A stretch of 64,000 nucleotides of DNA from Candidatus Curtissbacteria bacterium RIFCSPLOWO2_12_FULL_41_16 (GCA_001776545.1 MFBZ01000029.1:11988-75987); one strand, 5' to 3'. Positions 18,192 through 32,029 are shown, counted from the stretch's first letter. Translations and numbers: made by a program. Notes: generated from the sequence alone by a model not told the origin.

Positions 18192-18227
18192 TCCTAACTC
18201 CAGTTTAGGTTTGTCAATTGTCAGATG

Positions 18228-18320: not shown

Positions 18321-18977
18321 TTAATATTTTCTCAACGAAATTGTCGTCTCAAACTTAGCGTTCGCCAAAAAATCAGCTCTCGATGGAGCCTTTATACCTT
18401 GATTGACGACAAAACTGACATTAACCAAAGCCGGCGAAAGAGAACCTGAGGTACTTGGAGTCGCCTTAAAACTACAGCTTTGGATATCTACTCCGGAAAC
18501 CGTGTCTGAATTCGTAAGTGTAGTATAACTGGAATCGGAAGGATTATTAGACGTTGAAACTACCACGCCCATCCATCCGTTTAGAGAACCGGTGGAGGCA
18601 AAACACTTTATGTGTAAAGGATTTTCATTTGGCCTGATAAGTTTAATATACTTATCTGAAACCGCAGCGTCTGCGCAAGAAGTTGAATTCCCGCTTTGAT
18701 TGAGGCAGTTAACATCAGTAGCGTTTCTTATCTGCCGTTCAAGCGAATCTAAAATTGCCTGACCGTTTTGTTTTACCTCCGCGGTCACATTGGCCTGATT
18801 TGTCCCGCGGAGGATTGATGTCAAAAACAAAAGTGTCGAGCCCACTCCGATAACCAAAATTCCTAAAACAACCAACAGTTCAATGAGAGTAAAACCTTTT
18901 GACAGATTGACACCTCGAGGCTTTGTGTTAATTGTTAATTTTGTTAATTGGTCAAATGTCCGCGAAGCGTAGGGCAT
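18321..18977 (-). CDS. Type IV minor pilin (prepilin N-terminus [15 protein letters not shown])
   Basis: It has a class III signal and a hydrophobic alpha-1 helix. Confidence 0.6.
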   Translation of the reverse strand: MPYASRTFDQLTKLTINTKPRGVNLSKGFTLIELLVVLGILVIGVGSTLLFLTSILRGTNQANVTAEVKQNGQAILDSLERQIRNATDVNCLNQSGNSTSCADAAVSDKYIKLIRPNENPLHIKCFASTGSLNGWMGVVVSTSNNPSDSSYTTLTNSDTVSGVDIQSCSFKATPSTSGSLSPALVNVSFVVNQGIKAPSRADFLANAKFETTISLRKY

Positions 18978-19046
18978 CTAATTCTACTTTACACCGTCTG
19001 CGCGTAATCGATCAAATGTCCATACTTCATAATTCATACTTCCATA

Positions 19047-19565
19047 TTACGGGGTCGGACAAGGTGAACCCGGTACAATCACACCCAGACACCAGGCTGT
19101 CAAAAATGTTTGGCTGGAAACAGACTGATTCCCGCCGGAATCGACCCAAGAAACAATAACCGTGATTGATCTTTCATTGGCGGTTGTAGATGCCAAGGTA
19201 ATTTTGCGTCTAAATTCAACATTTTCTAAAGTTATTGGCTCTCCGGTGGCATTTGGGCCGGAACATGTATTAAAACTCCAATTACTCGGGTCTGAATTTG
19301 ATGTATCAAGCGTAAAACAAATCCCACTACCGGGAATTGCGCTAAAGCCTTTTCGATCTCTATAAACTCTTATTTGTTCAAGATTTTGCTGAATCAACTT
19401 AGAAGCTTGTGTATTATTTTTTGCCGATCTGGATGTTCTCTGCGTAACCAGGCTTACTGTAACCAAAGAAACGGCCAAGGCAACCACCAGGGTTGTTGCC
19501 ACAATTACCTCAATTAAAGACTGCCCGCCCAATAGAATTGAAAATTTATTATGGTTTACTCTCAT
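19047..19565 (-). CDS. Type IV pilin-like protein (GQSLIEVIVATTLV)
   Basis: It carries a prepilin motif. The start was trimmed to the internal Met (MRVNHNKF) to reduce overlap with the upstream gene. Confidence 0.5.
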   Translation of the reverse strand: MRVNHNKFSILLGGQSLIEVIVATTLVVALAVSLVTVSLVTQRTSRSAKNNTQASKLIQQNLEQIRVYRDRKGFSAIPGSGICFTLDTSNSDPSNWSFNTCSGPNATGEPITLENVEFRRKITLASTTANERSITVIVSWVDSGGNQSVSSQTFLTAWCLGVIVPGSPCPTP

Positions 19566-20277
19566 TAGTTTCTCCGGAAGGCTGAATAATGACCTTATAT
19601 ACACCCGGGACTTGCTGGGATGAAAGCTCAACCGTCACCGAATCTTGAGGAATAGATCCGGTCAACTTACTCTGGTCAAGATCACCGTTGACATTCAAAA
19701 ATTGCCCTGACGGAGGAGTAAACGCGGTATTCCAAAAAGTTGCGCTTTGGGTCAGAGGTTGAAACAAAATGTTGACACTGGTCTTTGTAAAAACGCCGTA
19801 TTTTATAGCGCTTATGGTCACGCCTCGAGGTAACAAAACGGTTTTTGTGTCAAAAGATTGCTCCGTACCCGAAACATTACAATCTCTGGAAATTGTGTAT
19901 TTGTCGTTAGAACCAAGACCTGCGTCAAGTATCACGTACCAACCCACCAATAAAATTGCCGGATTGGGACTGGTTGGATTACAAGTTCCACCAACCACGC
20001 CTTTGTTACCGGACAGAGCATTGTTTTGAACAAGTCTTAGATCATTTTTGAGCTGTAAGGCTGCATTCTTAAGTCGCTGATTACGTTCAAAATTTAAAAA
20101 GGATGCGGTAATAACAGACGCAGTAATGCCGAAGATGGAAATAACAATCAGGAGCTCAATCAAACTAAAACCCAGTTTTAGTTTGAAGTGATAAGTGATA
20201 AGTGATAAGTGATAAGTTTTTACTAAATTTCTGCTTGTTGCTTGTTGCTTATCGCTTTTTACTTTAAGGAAGGGCAT
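19549..20277 (-). CDS. FimT/GspH-like pseudopilin ([16 protein letters not shown]); the N-terminal 35 codons are encoded by tandem heptamer repeats and may be leader rather than coding
   Basis: It has a prepilin motif and a conserved Glu at +5. The ATG-initiated ORF would give a 42-aa leader. Confidence 0.5.
   Translation of the reverse strand: MPFLKVKSDKQQATSRNLVKTYHLSLITYHFKLKLGFSLIELLIVISIFGITASVITASFLNFERNQRLKNAALQLKNDLRLVQNNALSGNKGVVGGTCNPTSPNPAILLVGWYVILDAGLGSNDKYTISRDCNVSGTEQSFDTKTVLLPRGVTISAIKYGVFTKTSVNILFQPLTQSATFWNTAFTPPSGQFLNVNGDLDQSKLTGSIPQDSVTVELSSQQVPGVYKVIIQPSGETNESKP
20184..20247. repeat. Tandem repeats GATAAGT x4 then GCTTGTT x3
   Basis: gtgataagtgataagtgataagtgataag...gcttgttgcttgttgcttatcgc; translated on the minus strand this gives LITYHLSLITYH. 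Confidence 0.65.
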
Positions 20278-20378: not shown

Positions 20379-21146
20379 TTAAAGTATCGAAAGATACAAG
20401 GCAATCAACTCTCGGCCCCAAAAAAGGGAAAGCAAAAAACCGCAGACCAAAAATGGGCCAAAGGGAATAGTCTGACCAAACCTTTTTTTACCCAAAAACA
20501 GAAGCATTATCGCAACGATTGCTCCCAGAGAAAATGCCAAAAAAACAGCCAGAATCATCTCTAAAAAGCCTAAAACCATTCCGATCAAAAAACCCAAAAT
20601 AACATCCCCCTCACCCATGCCTCGACCCCGCGTTAAAAGGACTATGGCCAGAAAAAAAATCCCTGCGCCAAAAGCCGCGAAAACATGCTCCACAAAAAGG
20701 TCGGAACGCAAAAAAAAGTAATTATAAAAAAGTGAAACAAAAGAGGCCAAAAAAACCAAAGATGTCGGAATAAGCGAGAACTTTACATCAACTGTTGCCA
20801 CTACCACTAAAACGGACACCAGAAAAAGATAAAGGAGAAATTTCGTAATTTCAAATGGATTATTGACGGAAAGCGCGTAAAAAGAAAGCACAAATAAGCC
20901 TCCCGTCACGGCCTCAACTGCCGGATACTGCCAGGATATCGGTCGCCGGCAATAACGACAACGAGCACCAAGGCCGACAAAACTAACTACCGGTATAAGA
21001 TCTATCGATGAAAGAGTAGCCTTGCAGTGATCACAATAAGATCTGCCCAAAATCGTCTCGCGGCGTATTGTCCGATCAATAACTACGTTTAGAAAACTGC
21101 CAACCGCCGTACCGATAATGAAAATTACCAAAAGCCAAAAGAACAT
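20379..21146 (-). CDS. pilD: Prepilin peptidase / N-methyltransferase (A24 family)
   Basis: The Cys-rich cytoplasmic loop (CDHCKATL...CRYCRRPI) and multiple TM helices are present. Confidence 0.85.
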   Translation of the reverse strand: MFFWLLVIFIIGTAVGSFLNVVIDRTIRRETILGRSYCDHCKATLSSIDLIPVVSFVGLGARCRYCRRPISWQYPAVEAVTGGLFVLSFYALSVNNPFEITKFLLYLFLVSVLVVVATVDVKFSLIPTSLVFLASFVSLFYNYFFLRSDLFVEHVFAAFGAGIFFLAIVLLTRGRGMGEGDVILGFLIGMVLGFLEMILAVFLAFSLGAIVAIMLLFLGKKRFGQTIPFGPFLVCGFLLSLFWGRELIALYLSIL

Positions 21147-21182: not shown

Positions 21183-23336
21183 ATGATTAGTGCTCCAGCC
21201 AAATCGTGGCCATTGATAGTAATCACCTTTGTCATTTTCATTTTTTTTATAAAACTTTTCATTCCTCACCAAGCGATTTTCGTAACACCAGATTATGGCC
21301 GGAGCGACGCTTGGCATCTATCAATTGCCAATAAATATTACTACGCCCAAGAACTCAAAAAAAACCGCCTGCCAATTTGGAATCCCGCCGTCGGCACCGG
21401 CTTTCCAACTTTGGCCGAAGGCCAGACGGGCATCTTTTTCATACCCAATCTGATCCTGTTTCGATCATTACCTTTTGTTTTGGCCTACAATTTGAATTTA
21501 GTTCTGGCTTTCATTTTGGCCGCTTTCGGCGTCTATTTATTTTGCAGGTCACTTAATTTAAATAAATTTGCCTCCCTATATGGAGGCATTATTTTTGCTC
21601 TTGGTGGTTTTTTTATGGTCCACATTCCACACCTTCATCTCATCCAGACCGCCGCCATGCTTCCGTGGCTTTTCTGGGCCGCGAATGAATTTTTAAATAA
21701 CCAAAAAGTCCGCTATCTGCTTTTCTTAAGCCTCATCCTCTCGCAACAAATTTTCGCCGGATTTCCGCAAATAACAGCTTACGGTCTTTTTTCTTTATCA
21801 ATTTATGTAATTCTGCAGAACTTTTTTAAAAACAAAAAAGGACTCAAGTCGTTCATGATAATTAACTTGTCAATCATCCTCGGACTTTTAATCGCAACTA
21901 TTCAAATAGCACCAACTTACGAACTTCTCAAAGTTTCAAACCGCCACAATGACCCCCAATTAATCCTAAACCAGTTTCCTTACAAAGTGAAAAATCTTCT
22001 GCAGTTTTTAAATCCTTCTATTCTTGGATCTCCAAAAGACGGAACATATCCGAGGTGGGTTCCGGGTCAATGGGGAATATACTGGGAAAGTATTGCCTAC
22101 ATAGGAATCATTCCCCTCGCGCTATCGGCAGCGTCGACAGTTTTACTTTATTTTAAAAAAACCAGGGATAAAAAACCGATTGTCATTTTTGCCTCTCTGG
22201 CGACTTTAAGCATTTTATTATCCCTGGGATCATCCGCGCCTTTTCACCCATTGTTCTCTTTTCCACCCTTCTCGATCTTTAGAGTTCCTTCTCGTTTCTT
22301 GATAATCACTCAATTCTCGCTATGCGTACTCGCAGCAATTTATATCAACAAAATAACAAGGAGGCGTTTTTTGTATTTTTTGGTTTTGATTATCTCAATC
22401 GCGAATCTCTTTTTTGTATTTAAAAATTACAATCCTGTCGGCCGAGCTCCAGACTGGTTCGCAAGTCCTGAAACTGCAAAATACCTAAAAAGTCAAAATC
22501 CGGGGCGTATCTATACATTCGGCCAATTCACAAAATGGACCGAGCACTTTCTTTCCAGAGGATGGAAAGACCCCGGCTATTATTATTTTGCCAGAAACAG
22601 CCTTGACCAGAACTCCAATCTGATTTTTAATCTCTCGCAGGTTTTAAGTTACGAAAGCCTGCCAACACAGCGTTCATCAATTTTTGCTGCTTCAATATCC
22701 TCCGCCTTTAAAAGGGAAGACTCTGGTTATTCGGCCACAGCAAATCTGGCAAATTTTCTGGCCGCTGCCGGCGTGAGCCACGTGATCTCGACGGAAAACA
22801 TAGAAAGCGGCGATTTTCGAAAAGTTTTTGAAACGGCAGAAACAGAGAATACTTCATTCAAAATTTACAAATTGGCAAAAGATCCCTCACGCCTCTTCGT
22901 AACAGATCAGCTAAAAACTGCAAAAACCGTTCCGCAAATTACAAAAACCATAGAGAATAGAGAATTTGATCCGAAAAATCAGGCAATCGTCGAAATGGAT
23001 TCCAATCCTCCCGTTCTCAAACTTAGAAGTTGGCAAGCAAAAATAGTCGAAGAAACTCCTACAAAAGTTAAAATCGCCGCCAGGCTTGACGGCAATGGTT
23101 TCCTGATCCTTTCGGATAGTTTTTCCCCGGGCTGGTCAGCCAAAGTCAACGGCGCAAAAGCAAAGATTTATCCTGCAAACATAAACAGCCGGGCAGTTTT
23201 TTTAGACAATGGAGAAAACAAAATAATTTTTGAGTATAAGCCGAAAAGTCTTTATTACTTTTTACCAATCTCAATCATCTCGCTGGCTCTAACGCTAGTT
23301 TCTATATTTAAATTTTCAAAAGCAAAAATTATTTAA
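21183..23336 (+). CDS. Large polytopic membrane protein, YfhO-like GT-C-type putative glycosyltransferase
   Basis: It is 717 aa with about 12 or more predicted TM helices at the N-terminus and a large C-terminal extracytoplasmic domain ending in a TM anchor. The family assignment was made by eye. Confidence 0.4.
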   Translation: MISAPAKSWPLIVITFVIFIFFIKLFIPHQAIFVTPDYGRSDAWHLSIANKYYYAQELKKNRLPIWNPAVGTGFPTLAEGQTGIFFIPNLILFRSLPFVLAYNLNLVLAFILAAFGVYLFCRSLNLNKFASLYGGIIFALGGFFMVHIPHLHLIQTAAMLPWLFWAANEFLNNQKVRYLLFLSLILSQQIFAGFPQITAYGLFSLSIYVILQNFFKNKKGLKSFMIINLSIILGLLIATIQIAPTYELLKVSNRHNDPQLILNQFPYKVKNLLQFLNPSILGSPKDGTYPRWVPGQWGIYWESIAYIGIIPLALSAASTVLLYFKKTRDKKPIVIFASLATLSILLSLGSSAPFHPLFSFPPFSIFRVPSRFLIITQFSLCVLAAIYINKITRRRFLYFLVLIISIANLFFVFKNYNPVGRAPDWFASPETAKYLKSQNPGRIYTFGQFTKWTEHFLSRGWKDPGYYYFARNSLDQNSNLIFNLSQVLSYESLPTQRSSIFAASISSAFKREDSGYSATANLANFLAAAGVSHVISTENIESGDFRKVFETAETENTSFKIYKLAKDPSRLFVTDQLKTAKTVPQITKTIENREFDPKNQAIVEMDSNPPVLKLRSWQAKIVEETPTKVKIAARLDGNGFLILSDSFSPGWSAKVNGAKAKIYPANINSRAVFLDNGENKIIFEYKPKSLYYFLPISIISLALTLVSIFKFSKAKII

Positions 23337-25365
23337 AAGTAGGCTCGAGTTTTCTTTGTTGCTCATCCAAAAGCATTTGATATCTTGCAGCTGCTGCTTC
23401 ATCCAAATCGCAGTCTTTGGCAATTTTGACAAGTTGATTTAAGACATATTGATTCCGTTCGTTAATCGAATTTGCCCTGACAAAATTATTCTTTGCGCTC
23501 GTACAGTCACCTTTCTCCAGAAAAACTCGAGCCTTGCCTATGTAATAATCCTCGCTTTCGCCAATAATGGTGTTAGCAATAAAATAAAACTTCAACGCAT
23601 CATCATAATATTTCTTGGAAAGTAATTCATCGCCGATTTTTTTGTAGGATTCAAAGTAAAGAGCCTTAATATGCTCACCGATAAAATTTCTATAGCCGAC
23701 AGCCAGAGCGCCATCAGTAAACTTTAACCTGGGAAATATCGAGGCGACTGAATCAAAAATTATTCTCCCGTCCTCGATTTCATCTTTTTTAAAAAGTTCT
23801 GTCAAAAGCCCCGTTGTCGCCCATGATCCGTCTTCTATTTGCGGGACATAACCCCGGGCATAAATTTTAAAACGGGCTTTATTTGCGTTTATAAGTTCTT
23901 GCATAAAAGTAGCACTATCAAGTTGCCTGTCTTCAAAAAATTTCTCCGGGAAAGTTAAGTCCGGGTATGCTTCGACAAGTGAGAGACGATATTCTAAATA
24001 TCTCAAAGACCCGCCCTTTACTAATTTACGGTTTTGATAAATAGGATTCGTATAGTAGACGTATTGAGTGTTGAAAACGAGGGTATCGTCATAAACAAAA
24101 ATTATCGAATTAGGCTCTGACGATTCCAAAGTATCTCGCCCCAAAAGATCACCCAAGTAAAACTTTGATAAATCGCTTTTTGGCCAATTGATCAAAAACA
24201 ATGTCAGCGGAAAAATTAAAAATGATAATTTAATAGTTAAATCAAGAGTTTCTATCCTAAAAACCCAGGCTTTTTTCAAAAGATTTAGGCTTTTAAAAAA
24301 TTTCAGTAATCCCAGGCGTACCGCTGCAAAACCGAACCCTAAAAATATTGCCGTTAAAAAATAGCTAACTAGTAGAAAACGTTCCCAAATTCCTAAAAGA
24401 AAGTCTGTTGACAGTGCGAAGCTGGCGTAAGCTGCAAAAAAAGGCCCGGACAAAATCATTCCGGCAAAAAGCATCCAAAACAAAGACCTTTTTTTGATAA
24501 AGGCATAGAAAGACCCAAAAATAGCCAAAATTACTCCGAAAACAGTAAAATCATTTTTTACAAAATAAAAATAACTGATAATTTCCCAGGCCCTTTCGGA
24601 AAGTCTTGTGCCGATAAAACTCTTGGATGCCAAAAAAGTACCGTAATCGGCTCGGGTCAAAAGCCGCAAAAAGTTCCTCAAATTTTCAGGGTCATTCCAA
24701 TTTATAGGCGTATGGCGGCTTGCCGCATACGGGATAAAAAGATATGGTAAAAAACCGATGGCTGCAAGTATTGCAAGCTTTAAAAAAGATCTCCGGTTTT
24801 TGAAAATTTTACTGTCAGTCTTATAAACGAAATAGGCTAGTCCGGGCAAAATCAAAACGGCGGTCTGATGGTGGAAAAAGGCCAGTCCGAAAAAAATAAT
24901 AGACCAGTACAAAAACTTAATTTTGGGCTTTTTTTGACTGACTGAGTCATTCCACAAAATTAAAAAATAAACGGTTAAAGCAGTCAAGAGAACCAAAAGC
25001 TGAAAAACTTCTGTGACATGGGCATATAACCAAAATAGGGGAGTAAAGGCTAAAGTCAATGACGCGGCAAGTGAAAGAATTGCACTGCTTGTCAATTTTT
25101 TAACAATCAGAAAAACCACTCCAATAGACATTGCCTGTAATACCGCCGACATTAAATTAGACCGATAACTAACCGTATCCCCAAAAGGCAAATGGGTAAA
25201 AATATATCCAATCATTGTGTTTAGGGGATAACCGGGCGGGTGCGCAACCCCGCCAAACCAGTTAGCAAGAGTTATATCACCGGCATCACCACCATAAACT
25301 CCATGCGAAATACCCAAAAAATAAATAACGAAAGTAAAAAGCGAAACAAAAAGAAAACTGGTCAT
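23329..25365 (-). CDS. DUF2723/TMEM260-like GT-C glycosyltransferase (PMT-like) with C-terminal TPR repeats
   Basis: The N-terminus reads GDAGDITLANWFGGVAHPPGYPL (DUF2723 signature). It has many TM helices and a C-terminal TPR-like region (YYDDALKFYFIANTI...). Confidence 0.55.
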   Translation of the reverse strand: MTSFLFVSLFTFVIYFLGISHGVYGGDAGDITLANWFGGVAHPPGYPLNTMIGYIFTHLPFGDTVSYRSNLMSAVLQAMSIGVVFLIVKKLTSSAILSLAASLTLAFTPLFWLYAHVTEVFQLLVLLTALTVYFLILWNDSVSQKKPKIKFLYWSIIFFGLAFFHHQTAVLILPGLAYFVYKTDSKIFKNRRSFLKLAILAAIGFLPYLFIPYAASRHTPINWNDPENLRNFLRLLTRADYGTFLASKSFIGTRLSERAWEIISYFYFVKNDFTVFGVILAIFGSFYAFIKKRSLFWMLFAGMILSGPFFAAYASFALSTDFLLGIWERFLLVSYFLTAIFLGFGFAAVRLGLLKFFKSLNLLKKAWVFRIETLDLTIKLSFLIFPLTLFLINWPKSDLSKFYLGDLLGRDTLESSEPNSIIFVYDDTLVFNTQYVYYTNPIYQNRKLVKGGSLRYLEYRLSLVEAYPDLTFPEKFFEDRQLDSATFMQELINANKARFKIYARGYVPQIEDGSWATTGLLTELFKKDEIEDGRIIFDSVASIFPRLKFTDGALAVGYRNFIGEHIKALYFESYKKIGDELLSKKYYDDALKFYFIANTIIGESEDYYIGKARVFLEKGDCTSAKNNFVRANSINERNQYVLNQLVKIAKDCDLDEAAAARYQMLLDEQQRKLEPTFK

Positions 25366-26795
25366 TCTCTAAAAATTGACAATTTATATTTAGAAAGAGT
25401 ATCTAAATCTTTGTGAAGCTGGGTGATGTTAGTAACCCCTCTTAAATCACCAACGCTAACTCGAGGGTAAATTGATCCCCATAGTGCAAGCTTATCGAGC
25501 GATGGATCATTCGAAAACAACTGGCCGCGAACATCAGATAAAAAACCATATCTTTCAATTGTAATCTTTGTTCCTTGCGCTGAACTATTAATTGAAAAAG
25601 CAGATATTAAGACAATGGTAAAAATTGTAAATATTTTTAACCAATTGAAACTCAGAAAATTTTCTGATTTACTTTTTTGGGAAATATTCAAGTTAAAGTA
25701 GATCATCACTACAATCACTACCCAAAATAATTCAACAACTGTTATGTAACGAGAAACTGGCTGAGTCGGTAAACCAAGTCCTAATCGTCCGGCACCCGTA
25801 ACCACCGAGTTGAAAATAGCATAAAAACCTAAAGCAACACTTGATAAAATCAAAGTATTATTAAATAATTTTCCCCGGATAAATTTCAAAAGCAAATAAG
25901 CATAAATTACAAGCCCGAATATTCCCGATGCAATTGCTCTATTTGGGCTAAATATTTCAAGCGGAGATCCCAAAAGCATCAAAACCAATTTCACATAATC
26001 AATGGGGTGCTCGAAAACCAAAGTCATGGGAATTGGAGGATTAAAAGCCGGTTTTTGATATTTAAAAAAATAAGAAATGTAAATTAATAAAGATATGACA
26101 ACCCAAATTGTCAGAAATTTCACCTTTCTTATTTTAGAAATTTTTGGATGTAAAAAAATAATTACAAACCCAATCGGCCAGTAACTCAAACCTCCTGCAT
26201 AAGAATAAGTCGCAAAAGTACCAAAAACAACCGCAGCACCGACTGCAACCCAGGAAATAATTGGGGACGTTAAAATTAACAAACCCACAAGTATCGAAAA
26301 AAGGTTCATAAAAACCAATTTCTGCATTCCCCAAGTCCAGTTTTCAAATTGGCTGAGGGAAAAAACTAAGAAAGATAAAGTAGGTAATATAAATAAAATA
26401 GAATATTTTCGAAAATGTTTTACTTCTCGGTTTAAAAAATAAACTAGAGAAAGGAAAATCCCAAAGCCTAAAATCAAATTAAAAGCTATCTCATATTTTA
26501 AATTCCAACCTGTAAGCTGCCCGAGGGCTAGGGTCAAAAGATGAGGGAAAACCAGTCGGTGTTCATTGTGCTGTGACCAAAGATCATAAAAGGTAAGTGA
26601 TCCGGAAAACATCTTTTCAAACAGAGGCACTGAATACCACTCAACCCAGGTAGGTAAATCTACTGAAAACTTCACCAATATGTAAATTAAATAAATTATG
26701 GGAAGAATGGCAAAAAGTAAAATAAAAATTTTAGTTAACAAGAATCTATTCATTGTAGAATCCCTAAATTTAATAGAATAGTTTGTCAATTTCAA
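25362..26795 (-). CDS. Polytopic membrane protein, hypothetical (possible glycosyltransferase-associated)
   Basis: It is 477 aa with at least 10 hydrophobic segments. It overlaps the upstream gene by 4 nt, which suggests operon organisation. Confidence 0.35.
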   Translation of the reverse strand: MKLTNYSIKFRDSTMNRFLLTKIFILLFAILPIIYLIYILVKFSVDLPTWVEWYSVPLFEKMFSGSLTFYDLWSQHNEHRLVFPHLLTLALGQLTGWNLKYEIAFNLILGFGIFLSLVYFLNREVKHFRKYSILFILPTLSFLVFSLSQFENWTWGMQKLVFMNLFSILVGLLILTSPIISWVAVGAAVVFGTFATYSYAGGLSYWPIGFVIIFLHPKISKIRKVKFLTIWVVISLLIYISYFFKYQKPAFNPPIPMTLVFEHPIDYVKLVLMLLGSPLEIFSPNRAIASGIFGLVIYAYLLLKFIRGKLFNNTLILSSVALGFYAIFNSVVTGAGRLGLGLPTQPVSRYITVVELFWVVIVVMIYFNLNISQKSKSENFLSFNWLKIFTIFTIVLISAFSINSSAQGTKITIERYGFLSDVRGQLFSNDPSLDKLALWGSIYPRVSVGDLRGVTNITQLHKDLDTLSKYKLSIFRE

Positions 26796-26835
26796 GTATA
26801 AAGTGTTATCTTAAATCACTAACGATTCCGGCAGC

Positions 26836-27501
26836 ATGCAAGTTATCGAAGACATAAAAGAATTGTACATTAATCGTTTTTCAAAAGACGAACGAAAAGA
26901 AAGAAATGATATCTGGGAAGTTTTATGTTCAAGTTTTTTCCAACAATACATCGACCCGAAAAACAGTGTACTCGATTTAGGAGCAGGTTACTGTGAATTT
27001 ATTAACAATATCAAAGCTAAGCGCAAAATTGCGGTAGATCTTAATCCTGAAACCAAAAAGTTTGCCGATCATAATGTCAGAACTTTAATTTGCTCATCCA
27101 CAAAACTTCCAAAACAGCTGACTGGAAAAATCGACATCGTGTTTGCCAGCAATTTTTTTGAACACTTGCCGACAAAAGAAGATATCGTCAAAACGCTTGC
27201 ACAAGTTAAAAAAGCACTTGCAAGAAAGGGCAAAATTATAATCATGCATCCCAATATTAGATATTTAGGCGGTTCCTATTGGGACTTTTTAGACCACCAG
27301 CTTCCCTTGTCAGAAAAAAGCCTTGTAGAAGCGCTTACTCTTTCTAATTTCAAAATCATAAAAGTTATTCCTAAATTTCTTCCCTATACAATAAAATCTA
27401 AAATTCCAAAATATAAATGGTTAATTCGCCTTTATTTAAAATTTAAACTGGCTCATTTTATTCTCGGAAAACAAAGTCTGATTATTGCCCAAAAAATCTA
27501 A
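26836..27501 (+). CDS. Class I SAM-dependent methyltransferase
   Basis: Motif I reads VLDLGAGYCEF and motif II-like reads DIVFASNFFEH. Confidence 0.65.
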   Translation: MQVIEDIKELYINRFSKDERKERNDIWEVLCSSFFQQYIDPKNSVLDLGAGYCEFINNIKAKRKIAVDLNPETKKFADHNVRTLICSSTKLPKQLTGKIDIVFASNFFEHLPTKEDIVKTLAQVKKALARKGKIIIMHPNIRYLGGSYWDFLDHQLPLSEKSLVEALTLSNFKIIKVIPKFLPYTIKSKIPKYKWLIRLYLKFKLAHFILGKQSLIIAQKI

Positions 27502-28802
27502 TGCCTTTTAGATTCTTCACCAAACCTTAAAATGGCGGCAAGTAAAATTAATAAGCTAATTAGAAAGTAGTAGTGGATAAATGCTAATTTATTAAAAAAG
27601 AAAAATGTAAAAAGAAAAAAAGCAACCGCAAGTACAAACCTTGACCAAATTCTACTTGCTGCCCATATTAAAGAAAAAATTCCGACTACCGTCCAGACAA
27701 AATATAAAAATATTTTCGGTATATCTCGTCCCCAAAGAAAATAGAAAAAAGTATTAACTGTAATACTATCGTACCTTGCGGGATAGTTTAAAAAAAATTT
27801 TATCGTATCGTGATAAAAATCAGAAAAAGACCATAAGGCAAATGGCAGAATAGAAACCCCAATCAACAAAAGTGCCCGAAGTATCACGGTTTTTTTTAAT
27901 TTTGTAAAAATCAGAAAAAAGGGGATCAATATCAGCAAGCTCTGTTTCAGGCTCAAGAAAAAAGCCAGTATTATGTAAGAATATAAGTCTTTTGCGCGTA
28001 CCCTAATCTGTAAGAAAATTAAACCCGCTAAAAAAGCAAAAATTAAGCCGTCAATCCAGGACTGTTCAAGAATAAAGGATCCGGATGGATGATATAAAAA
28101 CACAAGCGGCAATATAAATTTCAGGGATTTTGCTTTTGATTTCAAAGACTCAATTATTTTGTAAATTATAAAAGCAGTTACCAGGTCGCTGATTATAAAA
28201 GCTACTCTGGGGTCGGAAAACAAATAATCAATTGGCGCAAAGACCAAAAGAGTTAACGGAAAATAGGTAAAATAATCAGGAATGACACCGACATATCTTT
28301 GAGGATAAAGTTGACTATAGGGGTTTTCCCCGGAAAATAAATATCTCGGGCCTTCTTTTAACATATCAAAAACATCTATCCTTGGAGATGGTGAAGAAAT
28401 CAGAACCATCACCCTAAGAACAATCGCCAGAATAATCATCGCCAAAAATGACAGTTTTTGTATGTTATTTTTTTTGCCTGAACTTAAAACCAGAAAAAGA
28501 GAGAAAATCAAAACAAGAGGAATGGCCAATTTAATAAGATTAAACGCCGGTCCCGGTTCTTGATAAATACCGCCAAACAAAAGGACAAAAAGCAAACTAT
28601 TAATTATAAATACAAACGGAGCGATTAGCTCAAAGCCGATATTGTCAATGAAAGTTCTCTTTTTCAAAAAAAACGAAAAGCCAAAAAGCATGTAGGTAAA
28701 AGCGAGGACTAAAAATGAATGGTATGAATAAAAACCTCGGGATAAACTGTAGCCAAAGATCGAAATCAAGTACAAAACCAACAGAAAAGAAGCACTCTGC
28801 AT
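27498..28802 (-). CDS. Polytopic membrane protein, hypothetical (possibly GT-C/DUF2029-like)
   Basis: It is 434 aa and highly hydrophobic, with no soluble domain recognised. Confidence 0.35.
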   Translation of the reverse strand: MQSASFLLVLYLISIFGYSLSRGFYSYHSFLVLAFTYMLFGFSFFLKKRTFIDNIGFELIAPFVFIINSLLFVLLFGGIYQEPGPAFNLIKLAIPLVLIFSLFLVLSSGKKNNIQKLSFLAMIILAIVLRVMVLISSPSPRIDVFDMLKEGPRYLFSGENPYSQLYPQRYVGVIPDYFTYFPLTLLVFAPIDYLFSDPRVAFIISDLVTAFIIYKIIESLKSKAKSLKFILPLVFLYHPSGSFILEQSWIDGLIFAFLAGLIFLQIRVRAKDLYSYIILAFFLSLKQSLLILIPFFLIFTKLKKTVILRALLLIGVSILPFALWSFSDFYHDTIKFFLNYPARYDSITVNTFFYFLWGRDIPKIFLYFVWTVVGIFSLIWAASRIWSRFVLAVAFFLFTFFFFNKLAFIHYYFLISLLILLAAILRFGEESKRH

Positions 28803-28949
28803 TAAAAAACGGGCAGGAAAAATATTCTTAGGGTATCAGTATAAAACCAAAACAATCAAAATCCAATAGCAAAAGTAGTCTTTTTAAATCCTGGCTCTCT
28901 CAAGCCGGCAGACTCGACTTCTTATACAACAACTTATGGCTTATGTTAG

Positions 28950-28988
28950 ATGAAAAAGAGCACAATGGATATCCCGATTGTGCTCTTT
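28950..28988 (-). terminator. Rho-independent terminator downstream of pilA
   Basis: The minus strand reads aaagagcacaat-cgggatatcc-attgtgctcttttt, a 12-bp stem followed by a T-run. Confidence 0.55.
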
Positions 28989-29014
28989 AAATTTCAAGGC
29001 TTCTCAAACCTCAA

Positions 29015-29518
29015 TTATGGCGTACAGGAACCTTGTGTAATTTCTTTAGCCTTGCCTGTTGTTGATTGCCAACAGAATAGGAAAGTACCAGTACCTGAAG
29101 TTGGATCCTCCAGCGTGGCGTAAACTGACGCTTCTGTGGCGCTGCCACTCGTGTTGTAGCAATAACCATCTGCTGTTGGTCCGTTAGGAACTTGCTTAAC
29201 ATCACCGCTACCCGTCAAAGTCGTAAAACCGCCAACGGCAGTTCCGCAACCAGACCCCGTTGTTGGAAAATTCCCTTGTCCTGGAGTTGTGTAATATGCC
29301 TGAAGTGCCGTTGCCAACTGTCCAATGTCGCTTTTTCGGGCGGCATCTCTTGCCTGTCTTTGACGCTTTCCAGGATTCACCGCCACTAGAACCGCGGCCG
29401 CTAAAATCCCTAAAATTGCAATAACAATAAGAAGCTCGATTAAGGTAAAACCTCTAAATAAGCGGGCTTCTTTTCTCACTGTACTCGAAAATAATTTCTT
29501 TCGGGCAGTTACAATCAT
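29015..29518 (-). CDS. pilA: Type IV major pilin (PilA-like); a GTG at 29479 would give a typical short leader [10 protein letters not shown]
   Basis: [22 protein letters not shown] follows a class III signal. The C-terminal region is Ser/Thr/Gly-rich with two Cys pairs. The gene has its own terminator. Confidence 0.75.
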
Positions 29519-29743
29519 TAAACTTATCTCACCCCCTTTTCAGGGATAAACTCTAAAAATATTCCCTACTAAAATTAAGTATCGAGTATTTGTTTTACGG
29601 TTGTCAAGGGGCAAGGAAACTCCGGCTAAAATCTGCTTTATCAGCTAAAATCAGGAGACAACTTCTCACTTCCAAATCAAAACTGACTCGTTAAATTTAG
29701 CCCCGCAGCGGAGCGAGGAGCGCAAGCTTACTTCCTTAAGTTA

Positions 29744-30952
29744 CTAAAATTGAGACGTAAGATTATATATTGGCAAAATAATCGAAATAACCAAAATGCC
29801 AACCCCTAAACCCAGAACAACCAAAATCACTGGTTCCAATGCTGTTGTCAGATTACGGATTGAATTTTCGCTTTCTGCTTCGAAATAAACAGAGAGTCGT
29901 CCTAAAACCTCGTCCATTTTGCCGGTTTCTTCCCCGACTCTAACCATCTGTCCGATAATCGGCGGGAAATCTGGATTCGCTGTCAATGGCTGATAAAGCG
30001 GTGATCCGCGTTCTACCCGCCCGATTGCAAACTCAATCCCTTCACGATATGAAGGACTAGCCAAAATATCGGCAACGACCTTGAGAGCGACGATAATTGG
30101 AATCCCGGTACCAATCAAAAGCCCTAGAGTCCTGGTAAATTGCGACAAAATAAGGCCTTTTCTGATTTTTCCCCAAATAGGCAAAATTAAAACAACCCTG
30201 GAAAGAAGTTGAGACCCGCGCTCGGTCTTTGCAAAAACTCTAAAAGCGTAAACGAATCCGAAAATCAAAAGAAGCAGTAACCACCAAAAACCGCGCATAA
30301 AGTTTGAGACCGCGACCAGAATTTTGGTTGGTAAGGGCAGCTCCGCTCCAATTTCCGTATACAAACTGGTTAATTTCGGAATCACAAAAATCATCATTAT
30401 GGTAACAACCAAAACCATCACCACCACCACAATTGCCGGATAAATAAAAGCTCCTCGGGTTTTTGCCTTAAACTCTCTTTCTTTTTCTAAAGACTCCGCG
30501 AGTTTATTAAGAACCTTATCCAAAACTCCACCGGTTTCTCCGGCCTCAACCAGCTTAATATAAATGACGTCAAAAATCTTAGGGTGGCGGCCAAGTGCCG
30601 CAGAAAGGGAGGTTCCTCCCTCGACGTCAGCCACAATTTCTGAAATTACATGGGCGAAGTTTTGATTTTTTGTTTGTTTTTCTAAAATAACTAAAGCATC
30701 GGTCAGTGGCAAACCTGCCGAAATCATTGTCGAAAGTTGCCTGGTAAAACCGAGGGTCTCAGATGAAGAAACGCCGGAGCTTGGCAAAAAAGTTCGTATC
30801 ACAGAACGGCTGGTGTTGCGTTTTCTAATTTCAACAGGAACCAAACCCTGGCCTTGCAGTGTTGTCACCAAAGCCTTTTCGTCAAGGGACTCAACATCGC
30901 CTATGAATTTTTTCCCGGTTAAATCTTTGGCAACATAGTGATAAAGAGACAT
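29744..30952 (-). CDS. pilC: Type IV pilus platform protein PilC (GspF family)
   Basis: It has two GspF repeats and three TM segments. Confidence 0.85.
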   Translation of the reverse strand: MSLYHYVAKDLTGKKFIGDVESLDEKALVTTLQGQGLVPVEIRKRNTSRSVIRTFLPSSGVSSSETLGFTRQLSTMISAGLPLTDALVILEKQTKNQNFAHVISEIVADVEGGTSLSAALGRHPKIFDVIYIKLVEAGETGGVLDKVLNKLAESLEKEREFKAKTRGAFIYPAIVVVVMVLVVTIMMIFVIPKLTSLYTEIGAELPLPTKILVAVSNFMRGFWWLLLLLIFGFVYAFRVFAKTERGSQLLSRVVLILPIWGKIRKGLILSQFTRTLGLLIGTGIPIIVALKVVADILASPSYREGIEFAIGRVERGSPLYQPLTANPDFPPIIGQMVRVGEETGKMDEVLGRLSVYFEAESENSIRNLTTALEPVILVVLGLGVGILVISIILPIYNLTSQF

Positions 30953-30967
30953 AAAGAGACACTTTGA

Positions 30968-32029
30968 CTAACTACTGTTGTTCCCCACCAACCGATCCAG
31001 TTCCTCAGGCCTCATACTGTAAGTCTTGGCAATATCCAAGGATATTCGTCCGGCACGCACTAAATAGGCAAGCGACGCATCCAAAAGAATCATCCCTGCC
31101 TCGCCCGATGTTTGAATAATATTATCGATTTGATGGGTTTTACCTTCACGAATTGCCGTCTGAACAGCTCCCGAAGAAAGAAGAATCTCGCAAACCGGAA
31201 GCCTGCCCCCGCCGATTGCCGGAACGAGTCTTATGGAAATAATTCCGGCAATTGTCGCAGCCAACTGCAATCGAACCTGCATCTGTTGATTTTCAGGAAA
31301 AACATCAATTATTCGGTCAATTGATTGCGCGGCCGAATTCGTGTGCAGTGTCGCAAAAACCAAATGGCCTGTTTCGGCAACCGTAATTGCCGAAGCGATC
31401 GTTTCAAAATCACGCATCTCACCGACCAAAACAACATCCGGATCCTCTCTTAGCGCTGAACGTAGTGACATCTCCCAGGAATGAGTGTCCAAATGCATCT
31501 CCCTCTGGGAAATCAAGGATTTTCCCTTCGGATAGACATACTCGATAGGATCTTCAATCGTCACAATGTGCACAGCACGCGTTAAATTAATTTCATTAGT
31601 CATCGAGGCAATAGTCGTTGACTTTCCATGACCTGTCGGGCCGGTCACTAAAATAAAACCCTGCCTTAACTTTGCAAAATTGTGGCAAATCTTGGGTAAG
31701 TTTAATTCCTCTATTGTTTTAATATAAGAGGGGATCAGTCTTAAAGCTGCCGAAAGATATCCTTTCTGAAAATAAGCGTTTACCCGAAAACGGGCTACGT
31801 CTCCCAGGGCAAACGAAAGGTCAAGCTCCTTATTGACTATAAGAATCTCTCTTTGCTCGGCCGATAAAAGTTCAAAGACCAAACTTTCCGTTTCCTCGGG
31901 CGTCAAAGGTGCGGATGTTATAGGCATCAGTTGTCCGTCAGAGCGCATCATCGGCGGTGATCCGGCAATTAAATGCAAGTCCGAGGCTTCCCTTCTAATA
32001 ACAATTTCTAAAAATTCCTGTATAGACAT
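30968..32029 (-). CDS. pilT: Twitching-motility retraction ATPase PilT
   Basis: Walker A reads GPTGHGKSTT, with Asp box, Walker B and His box, and the length is about 350 aa, typical of PilT. Confidence 0.85.
   Translation of the reverse strand: MSIQEFLEIVIRREASDLHLIAGSPPMMRSDGQLMPITSAPLTPEETESLVFELLSAEQREILIVNKELDLSFALGDVARFRVNAYFQKGYLSAALRLIPSYIKTIEELNLPKICHNFAKLRQGFILVTGPTGHGKSTTIASMTNEINLTRAVHIVTIEDPIEYVYPKGKSLISQREMHLDTHSWEMSLRSALREDPDVVLVGEMRDFETIASAITVAETGHLVFATLHTNSAAQSIDRIIDVFPENQQMQVRLQLAATIAGIISIRLVPAIGGGRLPVCEILLSSGAVQTAIREGKTHQIDNIIQTSGEAGMILLDASLAYLVRAGRISLDIAKTYSMRPEELDRLVGNNSS

What the first reader, a model, noticed from the sequence alone, without database searches (positions are those of the whole stretch)
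21183..29518. GT-C-type glycosyltransferase-like membrane protein cluster wedged between pilD and the major pilin gene: possible pilin O-glycosylation system
The pilus locus runs pilO-pilN-pilM-PilX-like-minor pilins-pilD, and the major pilin pilA and pilC-pilT-pilB sit on the other side. Between them lie four very large polytopic membrane proteins plus a SAM methyltransferase. One has the DUF2723/TMEM260 signature (GDAGD...HPPGYPL) with C-terminal TPRs. The TMEM260 family is a protein O-mannosyltransferase family in eukaryotes (established knowledge). Another looks YfhO-like, and two are unassigned. The major pilin has a long Ser/Thr/Gly-rich C-terminal region ([30 protein letters not shown]...TSGSATEAS...TSGTGT) that is a plausible O-glycosylation target. 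The pairing suggests a dedicated pilin or surface-protein glycosylation machinery in an otherwise minimal genome.
Basis: partly seen in the sequence, partly recalled or inferred. Interest (0 to 1): 0.6.

Follow-up and report, generated by a model that had tools for sequence, protein, structure and literature searches.

The report
Pilin-linked GT-C glycosylation island in Curtissbacteria
Inside the type IV pilus gene cluster of an uncultured ultra-small (CPR) bacterium sit four membrane sugar-transferases, including a bacterial relative of the human O-mannosyltransferase TMEM260; across related bacteria that gene almost always lies directly after the main pilin gene, so the pili are probably sugar-coated, though no one has shown it.

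Summary
Between pilD and pilA (21183-28802) lie four polytopic proteins and a SAM methyltransferase, in a Candidatus Curtissbacteria MAG.

All four polytopic proteins are GT-C-type:
- TMEM260-like: Pfam 1.8e-28; solved TMEM260 structure 1.8e-37; catalytic Asp conserved.
- YfhO: above the Pfam cut-off.
- Divergent GT87-like protein.
- Member of a large family with no Pfam model, whose predicted fold matches STT3, ArnT and AftA.

Of 49 evaluable Microgenomates loci, 37 have the TMEM260-like gene directly after pilA on the same strand (median gap 48 bp), and 46 have a pilin gene close by. The link survives three locus architectures. None of 25 non-CPR homologues is pilus-linked. YfhO-like follows in 34 of 52 loci.

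The other three genes are a low-GC3 variable insert. Relatives carry GT2, DegT or RmlC/D genes at the same spot.

Best reading (confidence 0.6): a stepwise, polyprenyl-phosphate-sugar-dependent pilin O-glycosylation island, architecturally like P. aeruginosa TfpW but built from other GT-C families.

Caveats: no acceptor or donor is shown, the pilin is no richer in Ser/Thr than the minor pilins, and housekeeping flanks are also syntenic. I rate it a new variant of a known kind.

The parts
14559..20277 (-). pilO, pilN, pilM, PilX-like and three minor-pilin genes. This is the assembly half of the type IV pilus locus.
   Evidence: Pfam PilO 3.3e-13, PilN 1.6e-9, PilM_2 1.9e-52, PilX_N 1.7e-5 and N_methyl motifs.
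20379..21146 (-). pilD prepilin peptidase. Its start is divergent from the YfhO-like gene, with only 36 bp between the two start codons.
   Evidence: A24_N_bact 1.4e-27 and Peptidase_A24 7.1e-11. In relatives, GT87-like or TMEM260-like stop codons overlap the pilD start by 4-20 nt.
21183..23336 (+). YfhO-family GT-C glycosyltransferase, 717 aa, with 10 predicted TM segments and a large extracytoplasmic domain before a C-terminal TM. It converges on the TMEM260-like gene and overlaps it by 8 bp.
   Evidence: PF09586 scores 42.7 bits against a cut-off of 28.5. 13 of 13 orthologues hit YfhO, best 8.4e-25. It is present downstream of the TMEM260-like gene in 34 of 52 evaluable CPR loci. GC3 is 0.408, like the host genome.
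23329..25365 (-). TMEM260/DUF2723-like GT-C glycosyltransferase, 678 aa. It has about 10 TM segments, a GGDAGD...AHPPGYPL first loop and a C-terminal soluble, weakly TPR-like domain. It is the proposed pilin-priming O-glycosyltransferase.
   Evidence: PF11028 1.8e-28 and PMT_2 2.2e-11. The solved TMEM260 structure 9rql_A matches at E=1.8e-37 over residues 14-475, with D27 aligned to catalytic D52 (the D52A result is in PMC10214176). D27, H42, P43, G45, E119 and R238 are invariant in CPR and non-CPR homologues. The gene lies directly downstream of pilA in 37 of 49 loci.
25362..26753 (-). GT-C-fold protein of 463 aa from a large family with no Pfam match (477 aa if the TTG at 26795 is the start). 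It is part of the low-GC variable insert.
   Evidence: No Pfam, NCBIfam or PDB sequence hit. The AlphaFold model has pLDDT 93.5. Foldseek top hits are STT3, AftA, ArnT, EmbB and Pmt4 at probability about 1 and E 4e-3 to 0.1. D37, W39, Q61, N63, E64, H65 and R66 are nearly invariant. The family has 19,275 representatives at E<=1e-3. GC3 is 0.295.
26836..27501 (+). Class I SAM-dependent methyltransferase, 221 aa, with no TM segment. Its likely role is sugar or precursor methylation, but the substrate is unknown.
   Evidence: Methyltransf_23 4e-8 and Methyltransf_11 7.5e-8. No TM segment. GC3 is 0.302. It is conserved only in L005/L011; other methyltransferases occupy the island in L090 and L060.
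27498..28802 (-). Divergent GT87-like (DUF2029/PimE-type) GT-C protein, 434 aa, 12 predicted TM segments. It carries an invariant P-x-I-D-V...N-P-Y loop motif (D143).
   Evidence: The window protein itself has no Pfam hit. 4 of 11 family members hit PF09594, best 5.4e-8. It is 33% identical (E=2e-50, full length) to the Pfam-positive GT87 of L090. The model has pLDDT 86.5. Foldseek gives only weak hits to AftA, ALG3 and EmbB. Invariant residues are listed.
28955..28988 (-). Terminator-like hairpin (12-bp stem followed by a U-run) 27 nt after the pilA stop codon.
   Evidence: Read from the sequence. RNA fold of 28940-29014(-) gives -23.7 kcal/mol, z=-4.0, with 0 of 200 shuffles as stable.
29015..29518 (-). 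Major pilin pilA, 167 aa. It has a G|FTLIE class III signal, a 144-aa mature form, four Cys and a C-terminus ...GSCTP. It is the proposed acceptor.
   Evidence: N_methyl 9.3e-9 and GspG-like 1.3e-12. Orthologue alignment. Composition.
29578..29607 (-). Best sigma-70-like promoter match in the region (TTGACA-18-GATACT), upstream of pilA.
   Evidence: Consensus scan, 10 of 12 matches. This is a pattern match only.
29744..33868 (-). pilC, pilT and pilB (platform protein and the two ATPases).
   Evidence: T2SSF 1e-62, T2SSE 9.2e-42, T2SSE 3.3e-129 plus MshEN.

Best explanation
The pilD-pilA interval is a pilin O-glycosylation island that works on the outer face of the membrane with lipid-linked monosaccharide donors.

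Proposed mechanism:
1. A cytoplasmic GT2 enzyme charges a polyprenyl phosphate with a sugar. This enzyme is not in this block. It is encoded inside the island in relatives L008, L024, L090, L045 and L060.
2. The lipid-linked sugar is flipped across the membrane.
3. The TMEM260-like GT-C enzyme uses its conserved first-loop Asp (D27) to put the first sugar on Ser/Thr of the (pre)pilin. Its clade-specific extracytoplasmic C-terminal domain recognises the pilin.
4. The YfhO-like, GT87-like and 463-aa GT-C enzymes add further sugars stepwise from lipid-linked donors, or serve other pilins.
5. The methyltransferase modifies a sugar or precursor.

The conserved core is pilA, the TMEM260-like gene and the YfhO-like gene. 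The low-GC3 GT87-like, methyltransferase and 463-aa segment is a swappable module that diversifies the glycan.

What is shown: family and fold assignments, catalytic-residue conservation, operon-level synteny and island variability. What is inferred: the acceptor, the donor sugars, the order of action and the biological role (for example phage or host-recognition effects).
For: Enzyme identity
- All four large proteins are GT-C type.
- The TMEM260-like catalytic Asp and the AHPPGYPL motif are invariant in 50 of 50 CPR and 25 of 25 non-CPR homologues.

Context, from 54 CPR-type loci found in one-genome-per-species contigs
- pilA lies immediately upstream on the same strand in 37 of 49 evaluable loci, with a median gap of 48 bp.
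- In 5 more loci only other glycosylation genes lie in between.
- In 4 more loci a pilin gene converges within 3.5 kb, in a different pilus-locus architecture that lacks the gyrB and holB flanks.
- The pilA/TMEM260-like adjacency also persists where pilBTC is inverted (L053, L057, L058).
- Two MAGs each carry two copies, and each copy sits next to its own pilin gene (L029/L032 and L044/L058).
- 0 of 25 non-CPR homologues has any pilus gene within 10 kb.

Operon coupling
- The GT87-like stop codon overlaps the pilD start by 4 nt in 4 loci. The TMEM260-like gene overlaps pilD in 2 loci.

Island behaviour
- Relatives have GT2 plus DegT (L008, L024), GT2 plus RmlC/RmlD-like genes plus two methyltransferases (L090), or PMT_2-like GT-Cs (L013, L032, L039) in the same interval.
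- The window's insert has GC3 of 0.30-0.34, against about 0.41 for neighbouring genes.

Precedent
- TfpW is a GT-C protein with 11 TM segments plus a TPR domain. It is encoded directly after pilA and glycosylates pilin Ser/Thr.
- The YfhO-family enzymes PgtC2 and PgfM1 O-glycosylate proteins from Und-P-sugars.
- TMEM260 is a protein-specific O-mannosyltransferase.
Against: - No glycan, acceptor or donor is demonstrated.
- No GT2 Und-P-sugar synthase, sugar-nucleotide gene or GtrA-type flippase was found in the 64-kb window.
- The pilin's Ser/Thr density equals that of the minor pilins, so it offers no special target signature.
- A strong terminator-like hairpin follows pilA, and the YfhO-like gene and the methyltransferase are on the opposite strand, so this is not one simple operon.
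- Housekeeping flanks (gyrB and holB; trmD and RNase III) are also syntenic across most of these loci. Gene order here is generally conservative, although those flanks are on the opposite strand.
- YfhO and GT87 enzymes elsewhere mostly modify teichoic acids or lipoglycans (for YfhO; own knowledge for GT87).
Confidence: 0.6

Rival explanations
1. This is a general cell-surface glycosylation island. The GT-C enzymes decorate an S-layer protein, many secreted proteins or a cell-wall or lipid-anchored glycopolymer, as YfhO does for teichoic acids and PimE/GT87 does for lipoglycans. Its position inside the pilus locus would then be inherited gene order, not functional coupling.
For: - Gene order around the locus is conserved for unrelated housekeeping genes too (gyrB, holB, trmD, RNase III).
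- The YfhO-like gene and the methyltransferase are on the opposite strand, and a terminator-like hairpin follows pilA.
- YfhO homologues glycosylate teichoic acids in Bacillus and Listeria.
- Non-CPR homologues of the TMEM260-like and 463-aa proteins are not pilus-linked.
- The pilin shows no special Ser/Thr signature.
Against: - The TMEM260-like gene follows pilA on the same strand, with a median gap of 48 bp, in 37 of 49 loci.
- The link persists through three different locus architectures and in duplicated loci within a MAG.
- GT87-like and TMEM260-like genes are translationally coupled to pilD in 6 loci.
- The housekeeping flanks are on the opposite strand.
- The one characterised TMEM260 enzyme is protein-specific.
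Confidence: 0.25
2. Labour is split. The TMEM260-like enzyme glycosylates pilins, while the YfhO-like, GT87-like and 463-aa enzymes modify a different envelope component, for example a wall polymer that the pilus must cross or that the pilus binds.
For: - Only the TMEM260-like gene is near-universally adjacent to pilA.
- The YfhO-like gene is antisense and is absent from about a third of loci.
- GT87-like is present in 14 of 54 loci and the 463-aa gene in 2 of 54.
- The insert has a foreign-looking GC3.
Against: - The variable genes always land between pilA and pilD rather than elsewhere.
- GT87-like is translationally coupled to pilD in 4 loci.
- Multi-enzyme stepwise extension is the simpler reading of several lipid-sugar-dependent transferases in one island.
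Confidence: 0.1
3. The role is non-catalytic or structural. The polytopic proteins would be pilus-assembly or anchoring accessory factors that have lost transferase activity, comparable to TfpY-type accessory proteins.
For: Pilin accessory genes downstream of pilA are not always enzymes (TfpX, TfpY, TfpZ).
Against: - Catalytic-loop residues are invariant across about 75 TMEM260-like homologues.
- Conserved first-loop acidic residues are present in the other three families.
- Sugar-biosynthesis genes co-locate in relatives.
Confidence: 0.05

Closest known systems
TfpW of Pseudomonas aeruginosa group IV strains (Pa5196, PA7)
   Same: It is a GT-C enzyme of about 650 aa with 11 TM segments, a catalytic acidic motif in periplasmic loop 1 and a large extracytoplasmic C-terminal TPR domain. 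It is encoded immediately downstream of pilA. It O-glycosylates pilin Ser/Thr from polyprenyl-phosphate-linked monosaccharide donors, and it co-occurs with a GtrA-like component and donor-synthesis genes.
   Different: - The motifs the authors use to define TfpW are absent here: DDX in loop 1 and YX6PFX7P in loop 4.
- The window protein is a TMEM260/DUF2723 family member, whereas TfpW was modelled on ArnT.
- Direct sequence comparison was not possible because no TfpW sequence was available.
- Here up to four different GT-C enzymes co-occur.
- The host is a CPR bacterium; by my own knowledge these have no outer membrane.
TfpO/PilO (P. aeruginosa 1244), TfpM and PglL O-oligosaccharyltransferases
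   Same: They are pilin-modifying membrane enzymes. tfpO lies directly after pilA, and its target includes the C-terminal Ser next to the last disulphide. The Curtissbacteria pilins end in ...C-T/S-P.
   Different: Those enzymes transfer a pre-assembled Und-PP-oligosaccharide en bloc. By my own knowledge they are Wzy_C/O-antigen-ligase-type. None of the four window proteins has a Wzy_C match. The GT-C families here imply stepwise transfer of single sugars from polyprenyl-P-sugars.
Human TMEM260 protein O-mannosyltransferase
   Same: It belongs to the same Pfam family. The match is E=1.8e-37 across the whole transmembrane GT-C module, the catalytic Asp is conserved (D52 in human, D27 here), and there is a C-terminal partly TPR domain on the non-cytoplasmic side. 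It is specific for folded protein domains rather than disordered tails.
   Different: - The C-terminal domains do not align; the match stops at residue 475.
- The human acceptor is the IPT domains of plexins, cMET and RON.
- The human donor is inferred by analogy with the PMT-type mannosyltransferases to be dolichol-P-mannose; the bacterial donor sugar and lipid are unknown.
- No bacterial member has an assigned function in the literature searched.
Three-component extracytoplasmic glycosylation systems: CsbB/GtrB GT2, GtcA/GtrA flippase and a YfhO-type GT-C (streptococcal GtrB-PgtC2 and the Pgf system)
   Same: A YfhO-family GT-C enzyme transfers single sugars from Und-P-sugar to Ser/Thr of surface proteins or to teichoic acids. 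In the Pgf cluster the enzymes are encoded beside their adhesin substrates. The window's YfhO-like protein gave a weak PgfM2 hit.
   Different: No GT2 partner or flippase lies in this block. The acceptor here would be a folded pilin, not a poly-Ser/Thr disordered region. The YfhO-like enzyme is paired with a TMEM260-like enzyme.
Actinobacterial protein O-mannosylation (Pmt/GT39 initiation, with PimE-type GT87 enzymes as lipid-linked mannose extenders)
   Same: The logic is a PMT-clan initiator plus GT87-type extenders that use polyprenyl-P-mannose on the outer face. This comparison rests on my own knowledge and was not checked here.
   Different: The initiator family differs (TMEM260-like rather than GT39), the system is pilus-linked, and nothing shows that the sugar is mannose. 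Relatives carry DegT or RmlC/D genes, which point to amino or 6-deoxy sugars.

Membership tests
TMEM260-like / DUF2723 (PF11028) GT-C glycosyltransferases | Match to the family HMM above Pfam's gathering score | tested here: met
   99.9 bits against a cut-off of 24.2, E=1.8e-28, profile positions 1-174 of 179.
TMEM260-like / DUF2723 (PF11028) GT-C glycosyltransferases | Catalytic Asp in the first non-cytoplasmic loop (human D52; the D52A mutant is inactive) | tested here: met
   In the phmmer alignment to 9rql_A, GGD(27)AGD aligns with GGD(52)SGE. D27 is present in 50 of 50 complete CPR and 25 of 25 non-CPR homologues. The D52A result is from PMC10214176.
TMEM260-like / DUF2723 (PF11028) GT-C glycosyltransferases | GT-C transmembrane module of about 11 TM segments followed by a non-cytoplasmic, partly TPR C-terminal domain | tested here: inconclusive
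   10 TM segments by hydropathy, and a full-length TM-module alignment to TMEM260. The C-terminal domain gives only weak TPR matches (E 0.015-0.08) and does not align with human TMEM260.
TMEM260-like / DUF2723 (PF11028) GT-C glycosyltransferases | Protein O-mannosyltransferase activity with a polyprenyl-P-mannose donor | not testable with these tools
   This needs biochemistry or glycoproteomics.
YfhO (PF09586) GT-C glycosyltransferases | Match to the family HMM above the gathering score | tested here: met
   42.7 bits against a cut-off of 28.5, in two stretches. 13 of 13 orthologues from related loci match, best 8.4e-25. There is a weak PgfM2 hit at 4e-4.
GT87 (PF09594; DUF2029/PimE-type) | Match to the family HMM | tested here: not met
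   The window's 434-aa protein gives no Pfam hit even at E<=1, and a profile of its family finds no PDB chain. Homology is indirect. 4 of 11 family members hit PF09594 (best 5.4e-8), and the protein is 33% identical (E=2e-50, full length) to a Pfam-positive GT87 in L090. I therefore call it GT87-like, a divergent subfamily.
GT87 (PF09594; DUF2029/PimE-type) | Conserved acidic residue in the first extracytoplasmic loop of the GT-C core | tested here: met
   D143 in the motif P-x-I-D-V...N-P-Y is invariant in 11 of 11 sequences. In the pLDDT 86.5 model it sits in the loop helices after TM5.
GT-C fold superfamily (for the 463-aa protein) | Structural similarity of a confident model to solved GT-C enzymes, plus a conserved acidic residue in loop 1 | tested here: met
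TfpW-type pilin arabinosyltransferases | DDX motif in periplasmic loop 1 and YX6PFX7P motif in loop 4 (as defined in bioRxiv 10.1101/2020.04.19.049825) | tested here: not met
   A regex scan found no YX6PFX7P in any of the four proteins. Loop 1 of the TMEM260-like protein is GGDAGD, not DDX.
TfpW-type pilin arabinosyltransferases | [quoted passage not shown] | tested here: met
   The position holds in 37 of 49 related loci. In this window three genes are inserted between the two.
TfpW-type pilin arabinosyltransferases | Sequence homology to TfpW (AAM52060.1) | not tested
The Kus 2008 paper is not held, and the plasmid tblastn search was empty.
TfpO/PglL-type O-oligosaccharyltransferases | Wzy_C (O-antigen ligase-like) domain | tested here: not met
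   There is no PF04932 hit in any protein of the block at E<=0.1.

The most novel reading that the evidence does not exclude
The bacterial branch of the TMEM260/DUF2723 family, which has no assigned function, includes in the Microgenomates lineages sampled here (Curtiss-, Gottesman-, Roizman-, Woese- and Levyibacteria) a clade that is the dedicated pilin-priming O-glycosyltransferase. The pilA-pilD interval would be a hypervariable glycan island in which up to four different lipid-sugar-dependent GT-C enzymes build a pilus glycan stepwise outside the cell. That would be a third, mechanistically distinct route to pilin glycosylation, alongside the en-bloc PglL/TfpO route and TfpW. It may tune host attachment or phage evasion in these episymbiont-like bacteria.
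Probability: 0.45. Interest if true: 0.75.

Novelty: new variant of a known kind. Interest (0 to 1): 0.6.

Why it matters
- Type IV pili are a near-universal surface machine of CPR/Patescibacteria and mediate episymbiosis in the cultivated members. Whether and how their pilins are glycosylated is open. The one experimental study of pili in this superphylum offers only a sequence-based site prediction and names no enzyme.
- A conserved pilA/TMEM260-like/YfhO-like module gives concrete candidate enzymes and a testable acceptor.
- It also gives the first functional context for bacterial homologues of TMEM260, a human congenital-disease gene whose bacterial relatives are mentioned only as 'distant homologs'.
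- If the variable insert diversifies the glycan, it would parallel the pilin and flagellin glycosylation islands that drive phage and immune evasion in pathogens.

Tried and rejected
- Sequence and profile searches of the two unassigned families against the PDB found nothing useful. The YfhO-like protein also has no PDB relative.
- hhalign of the two unassigned families against each other showed no relationship.
- The idea that the major pilin is unusually Ser/Thr-rich was tested and rejected. It has 28% S+T, against a mean of 22% both for pilins next to TMEM260-like genes and for the other pilins in those loci.
- Simple synteny as proof of function was tempered, because gyrB, holB and trmD are also syntenic. 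The argument was moved to strand, spacing, coupling to pilD and persistence through rearrangements.
- A donor-synthesis gene was looked for in the window and not found.
- tblastn of the TMEM260-like protein against plasmids gave no match.
- The TfpW paper (PMC2576659) is not held, and the TfpW motifs are absent.
- The third homologous-protein search and the metagenome scan were not spent, because they were unlikely to change the verdict.


Full report
**What is there**

The window is contig MFBB01000015.1 of the MAG GCA_001774835.1. Its closest homologues come from Candidatus Curtissbacteria records (Microgenomates, CPR).
- On the minus strand lie pilO, pilN, pilM, a PilX-like gene, three minor pilins and pilD (14559-21146).
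- Also on the minus strand lie pilA, pilC, pilT and pilB (29015-33868).
- Between the two groups lie five genes:
  - a 717-aa YfhO-family protein, 21183-23336 (+);
  - a 678-aa TMEM260-like protein, 23329-25365 (-);
  - a 463-aa protein, 25362-26753 (-), or 477 aa from an upstream TTG;
  - a 221-aa SAM methyltransferase, 26836-27501 (+);
  - a 434-aa protein, 27498-28802 (-).
- Each of the four large proteins has 9-12 predicted TM segments. The methyltransferase has none.

**What the four membrane proteins are**

- TMEM260-like protein.
  - It matches PF11028 at 1.8e-28 and PMT_2 at 2.2e-11.
  - It matches the solved 'Protein O-mannosyl-transferase TMEM260' (9rql_A) at E=1.8e-37 across the whole transmembrane module.
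  - In that alignment the window's D27 (GGDAGD) lies on D52. Larsen et al. showed that residue to be required for activity (PMC10214176).
  - D27 and the AHPPGYPL motif are invariant in 50 of 50 CPR and 25 of 25 non-CPR homologues.
  - The C-terminal about 200 residues are conserved only within the CPR clade. They look only weakly TPR-like.
- YfhO-like protein.
  - It passes Pfam's cut-off at 42.7 bits against 28.5.
  - All 13 orthologues tested hit YfhO, best 8.4e-25.
- 434-aa protein.
  - It has no Pfam hit itself.
  - Four of its 11 homologues hit GT87.
  - It is 33% identical over its full length (E=2e-50) to a Pfam-positive GT87 in a related locus.
  - Its model has pLDDT 86.5, and it carries an invariant loop Asp, D143.
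- 463-aa protein.
  - It has no Pfam, NCBIfam or PDB sequence relative.
  - Its pLDDT 93.5 model retrieves almost only GT-C enzymes among its best Foldseek matches: STT3, AftA, ArnT, EmbB, Pmt4, DPY19 and Pmt1/2.
  - Its family is large, with 19,275 cluster representatives at E<=1e-3.
- None of the four resembles a transporter.

**Synteny**

- Look-ups of homologues of the 434-aa protein gave the first examples.
  - One other Curtissbacteria genome has the complete block in the same place, at 55-76% identity (L005).
  - Two more distant relatives (L008, L009), at 29-33% identity, have the TMEM260-like, YfhO-like and GT87-like trio between pilA and pilD.
- I then scanned one genome per species with a TMEM260-like alignment and annotated the 79 loci by phmmer with the window's proteins.
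- 54 loci are of the CPR type. They come from Curtiss-, Gottesman-, Roizman-, Woese- and Levyibacteria, with identity down to 26%. Several records are labelled 'uncultured Gammaproteobacteria'.
- Among the 49 loci with enough upstream sequence:
  - 37 have a pilin gene immediately upstream on the same strand, with a median gap of 48 bp;
  - 5 more have only other glycosylation genes in between;
  - 4 have a convergent pilin gene within 3.5 kb, in a different pilus-locus architecture (response regulator, pilB, pilC, pilins) that lacks the usual flanks and carries GT2 genes beside the TMEM260-like gene;
  - 3 have no pilin gene nearby.
- The YfhO-like gene follows, convergent and usually overlapping, in 34 of 52 loci.
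- The GT87-like gene occurs in 14 of 54 loci, the 463-aa gene in 2 and the methyltransferase in 1.
- None of 25 non-CPR homologues (Rokubacteria, Myxococcales, Chloroflexi and others) has a pilus gene within 10 kb.

**A caveat, and how I handled it**

- The housekeeping genes that flank the pilus locus are also conserved neighbours in most of these loci: gyrB and holB on one side, trmD and RNase III on the other.
- Adjacency alone is therefore weak evidence in this lineage.
- The GT-C genes differ from those flanks in several ways.
  - They lie inside the pilus gene set.
  - The TMEM260-like gene is on the pilA strand at operon-like spacing, whereas the flanks are on the opposite strand.
  - The GT87-like stop codon overlaps the pilD start by 4 nt in four loci. 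The TMEM260-like gene overlaps pilD in two.
  - The pilA/TMEM260-like adjacency survives inversion of pilBTC (L053, L057, L058) and the alternative locus architecture.
  - Two MAGs each carry two TMEM260-like copies, each beside its own pilin gene (L029/L032 and L044/L058).

**The interval behaves as a variable glycan island**

- Relatives carry different genes at the same spot:
  - a GT2 plus a DegT aminotransferase plus duplicated GT87-like genes (L008, L024);
  - a GT2, RmlC- and RmlD-like genes, two methyltransferases, a GT87, a YfhO and a 463-family protein (L090);
  - other PMT_2-type GT-Cs that replace or join the YfhO-like gene (L013, L016, L032, L039).
- In the window, the GT87-like, methyltransferase and 463-aa segment (25362-28802) has GC3 of 0.30-0.34.
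- Neighbouring genes have GC3 of about 0.41. The YfhO-like gene has 0.41 and the TMEM260-like gene 0.37.
- This pattern fits a conserved core plus a swapped-in module.

**The pilin**

- PilA has a standard class III signal (G|FTLIELL), a 144-aa mature form and four cysteines.
- Its head is 28% Ser+Thr.
- Pilins next to TMEM260-like genes average 22%, and so do the other pilins in the same loci. The composition therefore does not single PilA out as a target.
- Curtissbacteria pilins end in ...C-T/S-P. Pilins of other orders have a Ser/Thr-rich stretch before a C-terminal CYWC.
- These are candidate sites by analogy with the C-terminal Ser used by TfpO, but that is speculation.
- A stable hairpin with a U-run follows pilA (z=-4.0). 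This is consistent with high pilA expression and attenuated read-through into the downstream genes.

**Mechanism proposed**

- GT-C enzymes use polyprenyl-phosphate-linked sugars on the non-cytoplasmic face of the membrane. This is established knowledge and is summarised.
- I propose that a GT2 enzyme encoded elsewhere in this genome charges the lipid carrier.
- The TMEM260-like enzyme then primes pilin Ser/Thr, and its clade-specific C-terminal domain selects the acceptor.
- The YfhO-like, GT87-like and 463-aa enzymes extend or vary the glycan.
- The methyltransferase modifies a sugar.
- Shown: enzyme families and folds, catalytic-residue conservation, operon-level linkage to pilA and pilD, and island variability.
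- Inferred: the acceptor, the donor, the order of action and the biological role.
- Confidence is 0.6.
- The main rival (0.25) is a general surface-glycosylation island that sits in the pilus locus by inheritance.
- A split-function model (0.1) and a non-catalytic role (0.05) are less likely.

**Comparison with what is known**

- The nearest analogue is P. aeruginosa TfpW.
  - It is a GT-C protein with 11 TM segments plus a TPR domain.
  - It is encoded directly after pilA and glycosylates pilin Ser/Thr from a lipid-linked monosaccharide.
  - The architecture and gene position are the same here.
  - The TfpW-defining motifs (DDX in loop 1, YX6PFX7P in loop 4) are absent.
  - Direct homology could not be tested.
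- The TfpO/PglL-type enzymes are excluded, because there is no Wzy_C domain.
- The YfhO-family enzymes PgtC2 and PgfM1 are established protein O-glycosyltransferases in streptococci.
- Literature searches found:
  - no paper that mentions both TMEM260 and pilin;
  - only one paper that mentions DUF2723;
  - for Patescibacteria, only a software prediction of pilin O-glycosylation sites, with no enzyme named.
- I therefore rate this a new variant of a known kind. It is a pilin-adjacent GT-C glycosylation system built from different families (TMEM260-like plus YfhO-like plus variable extras), and it is conserved across a CPR class.

**Verdict**

- Interest is 0.6.
- The decisive step is mass spectrometry of the pilin or a heterologous reconstitution with a D27A control.

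Noticed in passing
window 25362-26753 (-): The 463-aa GT-C-fold protein belongs to a very large family. A profile finds 19,275 50%-identity cluster representatives at E<=1e-3 and 6,781 at E<=1e-30. It has no Pfam-A or NCBIfam match. D37, W39 and a Q-x-N-E-H-R motif are nearly invariant. Hydrogenedentes members sit next to a Glyco_trans_1_2 gene, not next to pili.
   Followed up: partly
window 52515-55571 (-): Three adjacent genes resemble ATP-citrate lyase or citryl-CoA synthetase/lyase subunits: a Citrate_synt C-terminal domain (248 aa), CoA_binding plus Ligase_CoA (296 aa), and ATP-grasp_2 plus Citrate_bind (435 aa). This is unexpected in a metabolically reduced CPR genome.
   Followed up: no
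window 34707-35354 (+); also L053 2698-3342: An IS200-like Y1 transposase gene (Y1_Tnp 4e-7, GC 0.35) sits between holB and gyrB, right beside the pilus locus. A homologue occupies a similar place in L053.
   Followed up: no
L043, L045, L060 (about 9500-20000): Roizmanbacteria-type loci show a second pilus-like architecture: response regulator, pilB, pilC, several pilin-like genes including one of about 670 aa, then pilA converging on a TMEM260-like gene. No pilT hit was found. In L045 and L060, GT2, GT4-like and methyltransferase genes lie between the TMEM260-like gene and pilA.
   Followed up: partly
L029 and L032; L044 and L058: Two MAGs each carry two diverged TMEM260-like genes, each next to its own pilin gene. 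This means either two pilus systems with dedicated enzymes or mixed bins.
   Followed up: no
L008 7996-9377; L024 8800-9664: PIN-domain toxin and small antitoxin-like genes are inserted inside the glycosylation island, between the TMEM260-like and GT87-like genes. This fits the island being a hot spot for insertions.
   Followed up: no
L018, L021, L023, L027, L029-L033 and others: Many one-per-species records titled 'uncultured Gammaproteobacteria', 'Pseudomonadales' or 'Saccharibacteria' carry Microgenomates-type pilus loci, 30-45% identical to the Curtissbacteria proteins. The record taxonomy looks wrong.
   Followed up: no
window 21146-21183 and 23329-23336: The pilD and YfhO-like start codons are divergent and only 36 bp apart. 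The TMEM260-like and YfhO-like genes converge and overlap by 8 bp. That convergent overlap is kept in most related loci, so antisense or termination interplay is possible.
   Followed up: no
L001 14220-15163: In one metagenome assembly of the same strain, pilD is split into 245-aa and 69-aa ORFs. This is either a frameshift variant or an assembly error. The other assemblies are intact.
   Followed up: no
window 41189-45708 (+): Full carbamoyl-phosphate synthetase genes (CarA and CarB) lie downstream of gyrA. This is a biosynthetic capacity I did not expect in a reduced CPR genome.
   Followed up: no
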